DNA of 64,000 nt from a virus (IMGVR_UViG_3300027759_000043); one strand, 5' to 3'; positions 6,581-7,635 are shown, numbered from the stretch's first letter. Program-made: numbers and translations. Notes: generated from the sequence alone by a model not told the origin.

Positions 6581-6817
6581 TTAAAAGAATGGTAATCCGG
6601 ACTTCTTGGTTGTTTCTAAGTTCTCTTTGATTAGTTCGCCAATCATTTCTCGATCATTGGCACTTAGAGCCATGGCCTGATCGTACGCCAATCCTCCACG
6701 CATGTACCAACTGAGTTTTACCGCCTCGTTTCTTATCAGTTGACAGTCCTTGTCCATGGCCTCTATCATCTGACTGATTTCCTCAGGGCTAGAGATCAGG
6801 AGGCGTCCCCGAAAAAA
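6581..6817 (-). CDS. Tail assembly chaperone C-terminal (GT/gp51-like) segment, reached by a -1 frameshift or from ATG 6769
   Basis: Open -1 frame overlapping the end of the upstream gene; LSWYMRGGLAYDQAMALSANDREMI resembles the W..ei..m...eR pattern of chaperone T segments. Confidence 0.65.
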   Translation of the reverse strand, partial: FFRGRLLISSPEEISQMIEAMDKDCQLIRNEAVKLSWYMRGGLAYDQAMALSANDREMIGELIKENLETTKKSGLPFF

Positions 6818-7635
6818 CTTGCCATGTCCAGGGTAAACGGTTGTGAATACTTGTGTCCACATTCGGTACAGATCAAATTAATTGGTTTGATCTCACTGGC
6901 CTGCTTGAGTGCAATCACATGATCTCTCAGTTGGGCAAACACTCGACTGTCACAGTTGTTGAGAAATTCAAAAATGTAATTGATTTCAGTTACCAGTGCG
7001 TCGGGGGTCTTGATTGCACCTATACTTTGGGCAACAGTTTTTAATGTGAGTTCATTCATGACCTTCATGCTTTGATTCAGTTGCGCTAGTTTGGCAGTTT
7101 CTTCTGCTTCGGCATTGTCTAGTATTCGCAGTGCTTGTTGTTGTTCAAACTGCACTTGATTGTTTTGATTGACATCTTTGTAATTGATGGGTTTGAAGTA
7201 AAATTCAAGATTTCCCACTGACAGACTCTTGTCGTACTCTCCTGGCAAGATTTGATCATTGATTATTCGTAAATCCACTGTGATTTCGTCCTGGTGGTTA
7301 CAACTGGAACAAGTGGTATTCACATCCATTCCGTGTCCAAAACTGGCAATGCGTATGGCCACTAACACAGCGTCGATGTCTGTACTGGGCATGACCCAGG
7401 GATCTCTAATGCCGGGCACACAACTCTGTATAACCGAAACTATGGCAGATCCATTGAACAGCGCATCGGGGGTGCGATAGGTTATTTCGTCCACGGCTGT
7501 CATGGGCAATACTGGCAATTCTCCATTGGGTGGCATGTTTAAACTACCTGTTGGATAGAACTTACCCCCGCTGGGTAGTTTGATGTGAATTGCTGGTTGT
7601 CTAAAAAATTGACTTAGGGGATTGGGTTGTTGCAT
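6796..7635 (-). CDS. Baseplate hub / tail assembly chaperone (T4 gp26-like)
   Basis: Start MQQPNPL at 7635 after GGAG SD; IKLPSGGKFY, MTAVDEI, two CxxC pairs (CSSC, CTEC); divergent from the tape-measure gene. Confidence 0.75.
   Translation of the reverse strand: MQQPNPLSQFFRQPAIHIKLPSGGKFYPTGSLNMPPNGELPVLPMTAVDEITYRTPDALFNGSAIVSVIQSCVPGIRDPWVMPSTDIDAVLVAIRIASFGHGMDVNTTCSSCNHQDEITVDLRIINDQILPGEYDKSLSVGNLEFYFKPINYKDVNQNNQVQFEQQQALRILDNAEAEETAKLAQLNQSMKVMNELTLKTVAQSIGAIKTPDALVTEINYIFEFLNNCDSRVFAQLRDHVIALKQASEIKPINLICTECGHKYSQPFTLDMASFFGDAS

What the first reader, a model, noticed from the sequence alone, without database searches (positions are those of the whole stretch)
6581..6830. In-phase U-UUU-UUC slippery site: G/GT-type -1 frameshift in the tail chaperone of a T4-like phage
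Seen: on the minus strand the gp26-like gene ends AGT TTT TTC GGG GAC GCC TCC TGA. The heptamer T TTT TTC (6817-6811) is in the correct X-XXY-YYZ phase, and the -1 frame is open to 6581 (RGRLLISSPEEISQMIEAMDK...GLPFF). Downstream GGGG..CCTC..CCCT..GAGG could form a pseudoknot, though with no spacer. Known: lambda G/GT-type frameshifts occur in chaperone genes next to tape-measure genes in many long-tailed phages, whereas T4 gp26 and gp51 are described as separate genes. Inference: this links gp26/gp51-like genes to the G/GT mechanism, here transcribed divergently from the tape measure.
Basis: partly seen in the sequence, partly recalled or inferred. Interest (0 to 1): 0.72.

Follow-up and report, generated by a model that had tools for sequence, protein, structure and literature searches.

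The report
Conserved frameshift in baseplate-hub chaperone gene
One tail-baseplate assembly gene of this uncultured freshwater giant phage very probably makes both a short and a long protein, because some ribosomes slip back one base at a TTTTTTC run that every relative examined keeps; phage T4 makes the matching pair from two separate genes (26 and 51).

Summary
On the minus strand a PF12322 (T4 gp26/gp51 family) gene runs from 7635 to 6796. It carries T TTT TTC at 6817-6811 in X XXY YYZ phase, and the -1 frame is open for 76 codons, to TAA at 6583-6581.

In 42 related loci, from 86% down to about 25% protein identity, the heptamer sits at the same invariant Phe-Phe. These include the giant phages Atu_ph07, Phosso, PA5oct, XacN1, RaK2, PBECO4, BF, CBB, GAP32, SCTP-2 and a Vibrio phage. 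XacN1 has T TTT TTT instead.

The conserved -1 peptide (R-x-R-L-L...P-E-E-I) starts directly after the heptamer. The 0 frame always stops within 11 codons. In 27 of 39 loci no start codon could reach that peptide, and the PA5oct -1 ORF has no start codon at all.

The short product is collinear with T4 gp26. The long product (351 aa) is collinear with T4 gp51, whose C-terminal domain matches the extension weakly. T4 has two family genes; four giant relatives have one.

The lambda G/GT resemblance is an analogy of logic, not family membership. I found no published report, and none of 13 GenBank records annotates it. This scan has already reached the same reading on at least eight other genomes. 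Direct protein evidence is lacking.

The parts
6796..7635 (-). Baseplate-hub assembly gene, 0-frame ORF. It encodes the short, gp26-like product of 279 aa, from ATG 7635-7633 to TGA 6798-6796.
   Evidence: Translation. PF12322 T4_baseplate scores 55.3 bits against a cut-off of 24.5. phrog_150 'baseplate hub' matches profile positions 5-232 of 282. The AlphaFold2 model has pLDDT 95.2.
7643..7646 (-). GGAG ribosome-binding site, 7 nt upstream of the ATG.
   Evidence: Read directly from the sequence. Its function is inferred.
6811..6817 (-). Slippery heptamer T TTT TTC in X XXY YYZ phase. It encodes the invariant Phe274-Phe275.
   Evidence: It is identical in 41 of 42 related loci; XacN1 has T TTT TTT. 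U_UU.U_UU.C is among the efficient -1 motifs in E. coli (PMC4066793).
6581..6811 (-). -1 frame extension of 76 codons (RGRLLISSPEEISQ...GLPFF) plus TAA 6583-6581. C6811 is read twice. Joined to residues 1-275 it gives the 351-aa long, gp51-like product.
   Evidence: It is conserved and open from the first codon after the heptamer in 16 of 16 lineages. hhalign to the gp51 C-terminal domain gives E 2e-4 to 1.5e-3. The AlphaFold2 model is helical, pLDDT 80.
6796..6810 (-). Short 0-frame tail after the heptamer (GGG GAC GCC TCC TGA). It is variable in length and sequence among relatives.
   Evidence: The 0 frame stops 1 to 11 codons after the heptamer in every locus, and its peptide is not conserved (15% identity).
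7660..9813 (+). Context: a divergently transcribed 717-aa tape-measure-like protein with a C-terminal muramidase-like module.
   Evidence: The N-terminal two thirds are conserved and the C-terminal cell-wall hydrolase domains are swapped among relatives. The RaK2 homologue is annotated as similar to a tape measure. The CBB homologue CBB_251 was found in virions by MS (PMC5259590). Its tape-measure role is not shown here.

Best explanation
This is a programmed -1 ribosomal frameshift in the single gp26/gp51-family (PF12322) baseplate-hub assembly gene of a roughly 350-kb T4-related giant phage.

Most ribosomes read AGT TTT TTC GGG GAC GCC TCC TGA and release a 279-aa short form, which is collinear with T4 gp26. 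A fraction slip back one base when the two tRNA-Phe sit on UUU and UUC, re-pairing on UUU and UUU. These ribosomes continue with CGG GGA CGC CTC CTG and add a 76-residue helical domain, giving a 351-aa long form that is collinear with T4 gp51.

The site therefore fixes the ratio of two hub-assembly chaperone forms made from one mRNA. T4 reaches the same end with two paralogous genes.

Shown here: the heptamer, its phase, its nucleotide-level conservation, the conserved -1 coding that starts at the heptamer, the lack of usable start codons in most relatives, and the copy-number contrast with T4.

Inferred: that ribosomes actually shift, at what rate, and what the two forms do. By analogy with T4 gp26/gp51 they would be hub-assembly chaperones, possibly acting on the neighbouring tape-measure-like protein.
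For: (1): the heptamer is in phase at 6817-6811.

(2): 42 related loci keep it at the same Phe-Phe, followed by a 69-79 codon -1 ORF. They come from IMG/VR, ENA, JGI and Logan contigs and from 13 GenBank giant phages on hosts from Agrobacterium to Salicola.

(3): the codon before the heptamer encodes S, N, A, D, H or R but always ends in T, and Phe-Phe is always TTT TTC (TTT TTT in XacN1). The joint probability is about 1e-17 over 16 lineages.

(4): over the 12 codons after the heptamer, the -1 frame is open in 16 of 16 lineages with 39% mean identity (RxRLLxxxPEEI). The 0 frame has a stop in 16 of 16, with 15% identity.

(5): in 27 of 39 loci the -1 frame is closed 3-42 nt upstream of the heptamer, with no ATG, GTG or TTG in between. 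The PA5oct -1 ORF has no start codon at all. In RaK2, L019 and L022 the first start codon is at codon 31-37.

(6): the 120 closest clusters and the 150 best 50%-identity representatives all end at the 0-frame stop. None is fused in frame, so this is not a sequencing error; no indel at the T run in four other metagenome assemblies.

(7): on phrog_150 the window's short form ends at position 232, gp26 at 235 and gp51 at 280 of 282.

(8): the profile of long products aligns to the gp51 profile collinearly through the junction (E 6.8e-5); the extension alone against the gp51 C-terminal domain gives E 2e-4 to 1.5e-3, and none of 30 column shuffles reached that score.

(9): T4 has 2 PF12322 genes. 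BF, RaK2, PA5oct and Atu_ph07 have 1 each.

(10) PMC4066793: U_UU.U_UU.C is among the efficient heptamers in E. coli, is under-represented in genes and is used by IS elements.
Against: - There is no direct evidence for the shifted protein or for its abundance.
- No conserved downstream hairpin or pseudoknot, and no upstream Shine-Dalgarno-like stimulator, was found. Efficiency would rest on the heptamer alone, or on an element I did not recognise.
- In the window and many relatives a Met codon lies at extension codon 15 or 19, and GAGGA lies upstream of it. An independently started small protein of about 60 aa therefore cannot be excluded as an additional product.
- The homology of the extension to the gp51 C-terminal domain is statistically modest. 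A single-sequence hhalign gave only E 0.083.
Confidence: 0.85

Rival explanations
1. There are two separate genes. The -1 ORF would be translated on its own, from an internal start (ATG 6769 or 6757 in the window) or by termination-reinitiation after the TGA. The heptamer would then be a by-product of the Phe-Phe codons.
For:: a Met, or a TTG, at extension codon 13-21 is common. In the window GAGGA lies 11 nt upstream of ATG 6769. GenBank annotators called small separate ORFs in Atu_ph07, Phosso, BF, XacN1, EJP2, Munch, XbC2, SCTP-2, the Vibrio phage, PBECO4 and CBB.
Against: The 12-18 codons upstream of those starts are open and conserved at the protein level in the -1 frame in all lineages. 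The PA5oct ORF has no start codon, and RaK2, L019 and L022 have none before codon 31-37. Synonymous conservation of NNT TTT TTC is not explained by coding for Phe-Phe. T4 gp51 carries the matching domain fused in frame.
Confidence: 0.08
2. The fusion arises by transcriptional slippage. RNA polymerase would add or drop a base on the T6 run, so that some mRNAs encode the fused protein directly.
For: The site is a homopolymer run, and XacN1 has seven T. The outcome, a long form sharing the N-terminus, would be the same.
Against: Six T is short for efficient slippage. From my own knowledge of dnaX in Thermus and of IS elements, productive sites usually have runs of nine or more. The run length is held at exactly six, with C as the seventh base, in 41 of 42 loci, which fits tandem tRNA re-pairing rather than selection for a longer run. 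No RNA data could be obtained to test this.
Confidence: 0.05
3. The frame break is an assembly or sequencing error, or a recent pseudogenising indel, in a gene that is really one 351-codon ORF.
For: Homopolymer runs are typical places for indel errors.
Against: The same frame arrangement is found in every one of 42 loci from independent projects and isolates. It is also found in 120 close clusters and 150 distant representatives, none fused in frame. Four other assemblies show no indel at the run.
Confidence: 0.01

Closest known systems
Phage T4 gp26 and gp51 (hub assembly chaperones; Pfam PF12322 T4_baseplate, phrog_150; gp51 also carries a C-terminal domain listed as PF28602)
   Same: It belongs to the same protein family (55.3 bits on PF12322). 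It has the same two CxxC pairs and the Phe-rich end. The short form stops where gp26 stops, and the long form continues as gp51 does. The gene sits in the baseplate/tail-tube gene neighbourhood. gp26 and gp51 are listed as hub assembly chaperones, and gp51 is absent from the virion (PMC3004832).
   Different: T4 encodes the two forms as two diverged, divergently transcribed genes without any slippery site; gp26 ends GAG TTC TTT GAG TTA CTA TAA. Here, and in all the giant relatives examined, one gene plus a -1 frameshift gives both forms. T4 gene 26 also has an internal in-frame start (26'), which has no counterpart examined here.
Lambda gpG/gpGT and the conserved -1 frameshift of tail assembly chaperone genes in long-tailed phages (Xu, Hendrix and Duda 2004; P2 E/E+E' in myoviruses)
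   Same: A -1 slip near the 3' end of a tail-assembly chaperone gene yields a short and a C-terminally extended form from one mRNA. The site is conserved across very divergent phages although the protein sequences are not. The gene lies next to a tape-measure-like gene.
   Different: There is no detectable sequence or fold relation to gpG-type chaperones. The gene is divergent from the tape-measure-like gene rather than immediately upstream of it in the same direction. The role of the two forms in tape-measure or tube assembly is not shown. The family is zinc-ribbon-bearing and about twice the size of gpG.
dnaX tau/gamma and IS3/IS1 transposase -1 frameshift sites in bacteria
   Same: They use the tandem-slippage X XXY YYZ mechanism. 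U_UU.U_UU.C is used by some IS elements (PMC4066793).
   Different: Those sites have recognised stimulators: an upstream SD-like element, or a downstream hairpin or pseudoknot. None was found conserved here.

Membership tests
Programmed -1 ribosomal frameshift site (tandem slippage, X XXY YYZ) | Slippery heptamer in the correct phase of the upstream frame | tested here: met
   T TTT TTC at 6817-6811, with codons AGT TTT TTC.
Programmed -1 ribosomal frameshift site (tandem slippage, X XXY YYZ) | -1 frame open and under protein-coding constraint from the heptamer onward | tested here: met
   76 codons in the window. Open in 16 of 16 lineages with 39% identity over the first 12 codons, against a stop in 16 of 16 in the 0 frame.
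Programmed -1 ribosomal frameshift site (tandem slippage, X XXY YYZ) | Heptamer conserved at synonymous positions in homologues | tested here: met
   41 of 42 loci are identical and 1 has T TTT TTT. Joint probability about 1e-17 over 16 lineages.
Programmed -1 ribosomal frameshift site (tandem slippage, X XXY YYZ) | Stimulatory element (downstream structure 5-9 nt away, or upstream SD-like sequence) | tested here: not met
   RNAalifold predicts no pairs on 26 sequences. The window's fold has z = -0.70. The candidate pseudoknot pairs in 59% of cells against 61% in shuffles. No conserved SD-like motif appears in alignment A3. A stimulator is usual but not obligatory for this class.
Programmed -1 ribosomal frameshift site (tandem slippage, X XXY YYZ) | Trans-frame protein detected | not testable with these tools
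   No proteomic data are held for the junction.
T4 gp26/gp51 family (PF12322 T4_baseplate) | Significant match to the family model over its full length | tested here: met
   PF12322 E 9.6e-15, 55.3 bits (cut-off 24.5), profile positions 39-218 of 219. phrog_150 E 3e-14.
T4 gp26/gp51 family (PF12322 T4_baseplate) | gp51-type C-terminal domain in the long form | tested here: inconclusive
   The alignment is collinear through the junction (hhalign E 6.8e-5). The domain alone gives E 2e-4 to 1.5e-3, and none of 30 shuffles reached that score. The single-sequence comparison gives only E 0.083. The PF28602 model is not in the local Pfam copy.
T4 gp26/gp51 family (PF12322 T4_baseplate) | Needed for hub assembly and not a virion component | not testable with these tools
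   There is only an indirect hint. The CBB virion MS table lists the neighbour CBB_251 but not the hub gene CBB_250 (PMC5259590).
Lambda G/GT-type tail assembly chaperone pair | Two products sharing an N-terminus through a -1 frameshift near the end of the first ORF | tested here: met
   As above. This is inferred from sequence conservation, not from protein data.
Lambda G/GT-type tail assembly chaperone pair | Gene pair placed between the tail tube gene and the tape measure gene, in the same direction | tested here: not met
   The gene is on the minus strand, divergent from the tape-measure-like gene at 7660-9813 (+). Downstream lie apt and mtnN-like genes.
Lambda G/GT-type tail assembly chaperone pair | Sequence or fold relation to gpG-type chaperone families | tested here: inconclusive
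   Pfam and PHROGs give no chaperone family. The Foldseek PDB search has no match at E <= 0.001. The best VIA-align match has Z 8.1 over a 52-residue helical hairpin only.
Lambda G/GT-type tail assembly chaperone pair | Short and long forms bind the tape measure; the extension binds the tube protein | not testable with these tools
   This needs pull-downs or structures.

The most novel reading that the evidence does not exclude
The gp26/gp51 hub chaperones would be the T4 lineage's functional counterpart of lambda G/GT. An ancestral single gene made a short and a long chaperone in a ratio fixed by the T TTT TTC slip, to load the tape-measure-like protein into the nascent hub. The T-even phages later replaced recoding by gene duplication and subfunctionalisation, giving gene 26 for the short form and gene 51 for the long form. 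Contigs such as L043, with two tandem copies of which only one keeps the slip, would be intermediates. This would close the long-standing gap that T4-type phages appear to lack the otherwise near-universal tail-chaperone frameshift.
Probability: 0.35. Interest if true: 0.8.

Novelty: new variant of a known kind. Interest (0 to 1): 0.72.

Why it matters
Programmed frameshifting in tail-chaperone genes is one of the most conserved recoding events in long-tailed phages, and T4-type phages have been the notable exception. Here a different protein family, in a large and widespread group of T4-related giant phages, uses the same trick at an almost invariant heptamer. These phages infect E. coli, Klebsiella, Pseudomonas, Erwinia, Xanthomonas, Agrobacterium, Vibrio, Salicola and uncultured freshwater hosts.

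- It gives a concrete reason why T4 has two paralogous, poorly understood hub-assembly genes, 26 and 51.
- It predicts a fixed short-to-long stoichiometry in hub assembly.
- It corrects the annotation of hundreds of genomes, where the extension is called as a stray small ORF or missed altogether.
- It offers a natural -1 site that may work without a recognisable stimulator.
- It is directly testable in cultured phages of laboratory hosts.

Tried and rejected
- RNA evidence: the look-up of sequencing runs listed no RNA holder, so expression and transcriptional slippage could not be examined. Only DNA contigs could be laid.
- Complex prediction of the hub short form against the divergent tape-measure-like neighbour, both given as alignments, returned no verdict. 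It says nothing either way.
- Fold searches:
  - Hub model against PDB with Foldseek: nothing at E <= 0.001.
  - VIA-align wide: only generic helical-hairpin matches, best Z 8.1 over 52 residues.
  - AlphaFold DB Swiss-Prot: the best hits were 140-aa uncharacterised Xylella proteins at E 0.08 to 0.19, too weak to use.
  - Extension model: best Z 5.8, with GINS subunits, uninformative.
- The PDB sequence search found nothing.
- Pfam and PHROGs gave no family for the window's extension peptide. Six Rak2-like extensions match phrog_18291, which has no known function.
- The search for related loci with the family alignment failed because no stretch was conserved enough. Single-protein queries were used instead.
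- No whole genome is held for the window. Copy number was therefore checked in complete relatives only.
- BLASTP of the neighbour against T4 gp29 showed no similarity, and Pfam gave nothing for the neighbour.
- A four-letter-codon translation cannot model a -1 shift and hit an earlier TTTC. The fused product was therefore built only inside scripts and could not be sent to the structure or family tools.
- Literature searches found no report of this frameshift. The library is incomplete, so this is not proof that none exists.

Full report
**What is in the sequence**

On the minus strand a gene starts at ATG 7635-7633, with GGAG 7 nt upstream. It ends ...GAC ATG GCA AGT TTT TTC GGG GAC GCC TCC TGA, with the stop at 6798-6796. 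Its 279-aa product matches Pfam PF12322 (T4_baseplate, the family of T4 gp26 and gp51) at 55.3 bits against a cut-off of 24.5. It also matches PHROG 150, 'baseplate hub'.

The heptamer T TTT TTC lies at 6817-6811 in X XXY YYZ phase. After a -1 slip the next codon is CGG. The frame then runs for 76 codons (RGRLLISSPEEISQMIEAMDK...GLPFF) to TAA 6583-6581. The trans-frame product would be 351 aa.

**Conservation of the site**

I collected relatives from four kinds of source:
- IMG/VR viral contigs.
- GenBank phages.
- Metagenome contigs that encode distant cluster representatives.
- T4 itself.

All relatives found in GenBank are giant (284-490 kb) T4-related myoviruses. They are Atu_ph07, Phosso, PA5oct, XacN1, RaK2, EJP2, PBECO4, Munch, BF, CBB, GAP32, XbC2, Salicola SCTP-2 and a Vibrio phage. 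The window's own protein occurs on a contig of 349 kb.

In all 42 loci with a complete junction, protein identity to the window ranges from 86% down to about 25%. In every one the same invariant Phe-Phe near the C-terminus is encoded by NNT TTT TTC; XacN1 has NNT TTT TTT. Each is followed by a -1 ORF of 69-79 codons.

The residue before Phe-Phe varies (S, N, A, D, H, R), yet its codon always ends in T. Using each gene's own codon usage, the chance of this synonymous pattern in 16 lineages is about 1e-17. That figure treats the lineages as independent, so it is rough. In the nucleotide alignment the six T are invariant, and the following C and G are at least 90% conserved.

**Which frame is translated after the heptamer**

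Over the 12 codons after the heptamer the -1 frame is open in 16 of 16 lineages. It shows a conserved peptide, R-x-R-L-L-x-x-x-P-E-E-I, with 39% mean pairwise identity. The 0 frame has a stop in 16 of 16 lineages and 15% identity. The 0-frame tail is 1 to 11 codons long and unrelated between clades.

In 27 of 39 loci the -1 frame is closed 3-42 nt upstream of the heptamer with no ATG, GTG or TTG in between. The -1 ORF therefore opens at the heptamer. The PA5oct ORF has no start codon at all. RaK2, L019 and L022 have none before codon 31-37.

The mechanical ORF start at ATG 6862 in the window is kept only in the nearest relatives. Independent initiation therefore cannot account for the conserved first 12-18 residues. 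It could still yield an additional small protein from Met15 or Met19 in some phages.

**Not an artefact**

The 120 closest 90%-identity clusters and the 150 best 50%-identity representatives all end at the 0-frame stop. They come from JGI, ENA, NCBI and Logan assemblies. No in-frame fusion was seen. Contigs of four other freshwater metagenomes show no indel at the T run.

**Relation to T4**

T4 has two PF12322 genes, 26 (208 aa) and 51 (249 aa). BF, RaK2, PA5oct and Atu_ph07 have one each.

On the PHROG 150 profile of 282 positions, the window's short form ends at position 232, gp26 at 235 and gp51 at 280. T4 gp26 ends ...EFFELL* with no slippery run. gp51 continues in frame after ...VDVF with KLLVNPDEI...MIPAERGFVLKLIEKDKQ.

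A profile of the predicted long products aligns to a profile of 90 gp51 homologues collinearly through the junction and to the C-terminus (hhalign E 6.8e-5). The extension alone against the gp51 C-terminal domain alone gives E 2e-4 to 1.5e-3. The best of 30 column-shuffled controls reached only E 0.027. A single-sequence comparison is weak (E 0.083).

I therefore regard the short = gp26-like, long = gp51-like reading as likely but not proven. One metagenomic phage (L043/L044) has two tandem family genes. The first has neither heptamer nor extension; the second has both.

**Mechanism**

The heptamer allows both tRNA-Phe to re-pair in the -1 frame. U_UU.U_UU.C is among the efficient, under-represented heptamers measured in E. 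coli and is used by IS elements (PMC4066793).

I found no conserved stimulator:
- RNAalifold predicts no pairs on 26 sequences.
- The window's downstream 98 nt fold no better than shuffles (z = -0.70).
- A candidate CCUC/GAGG plus CUGAU/AUCAG pseudoknot with a 7-nt spacer shows no covariation. It pairs in 59% of cells against 61% in shuffles. Its complementarity follows from Leu and Glu codons.

Some earlier reports of this scan on other genomes mention a hairpin after the run. Family-wide I see none. Transcriptional slippage on six T cannot be excluded without RNA data, but it fits the fixed run length less well.

**Function**

T4 gp26 and gp51 are listed as hub assembly chaperones, and gp51 is essential but absent from the virion (PMC3004832).

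The divergent neighbour (7660-9813, 717 aa) has a conserved N-terminal two thirds and interchangeable C-terminal cell-wall hydrolase modules. Its RaK2 homologue is annotated as tape-measure-like. Its CBB homologue is a virion protein by MS with 29 peptides, while the CBB hub gene is not in that table (PMC5259590).

This is compatible with a chaperone pair acting on a tape-measure-like protein, as in lambda G/GT. That remains an analogy:
- The family shows no sequence or fold relation to gpG-type chaperones.
- The gene order differs.
- No interaction is shown.

The AlphaFold2 model of the short form is confident (pLDDT 95.2) with two CxxC pairs. The extension is predicted helical (pLDDT 80).

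**Novelty**

None of the 13 GenBank records viewed annotates a joined CDS. The -1 ORF is called as a small hypothetical protein with arbitrary starts, or not at all. Full-text searches found no report.

This scan has already reached the same conclusion on at least eight other genomes. I arrived at the gp26/gp51 reading before reading those notes. The finding is a new variant of a known kind: tail-chaperone-type -1 frameshifting in a different protein family and phage lineage.

Noticed in passing
window 6796-7635 (-); alignments A1 and A5: The hub protein has two nearly invariant CxxC pairs (C109/C112 and C256/C259), probably a zinc ribbon. The homologue in Yersinia phage fHe-Yen9-04 is annotated as a heavy-metal transporting ATPase, most likely a mis-annotation caused by these motifs.
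   Followed up: partly
L043:1201-2031 and L043:2051-2875 (also L044): Two tandem PF12322 genes lie in one uncultured phage. The first ends ...NFVKK* with no heptamer or extension. The second keeps GAT TTT TTC GTT TAA and a 76-codon -1 ORF. This may be an intermediate between the one-gene and the T4-type two-gene state.
   Followed up: partly
window 7660-9813 (+): The divergent 717-aa tape-measure-like protein has a conserved N-terminal two thirds. Its C-terminal cell-wall hydrolase module is swapped among relatives: muramidase, PF18013, VanY PF02557, transglycosylase PF06737 and chitinase PF00182.
   Followed up: partly
GenBank records behind L001-L003, L034-L039, L047-L050: The -1 extension ORF is annotated inconsistently. 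It appears as a 40- to 76-aa hypothetical protein with different arbitrary starts, or is not called at all (PA5oct, RaK2). No record has a joined or slippage CDS.
   Followed up: yes
window 6580-6640 and 6796-6855: In four freshwater metagenome assemblies many contigs of related phages align at 85% or more only to these two short stretches, the heptamer region and the end of the extension. This suggests local nucleotide-level conservation above that of the rest of the gene. Summed contig depth is a poor measure, so this is only a hint.
   Followed up: no
window 6573-6583 (-): The extension's TAA stop (6583-6581) is followed after 7 nt by the ATG (6573) of an adenine phosphoribosyltransferase-like gene on the same strand. 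The chaperone gene and auxiliary metabolic genes may therefore share a transcript.
   Followed up: no
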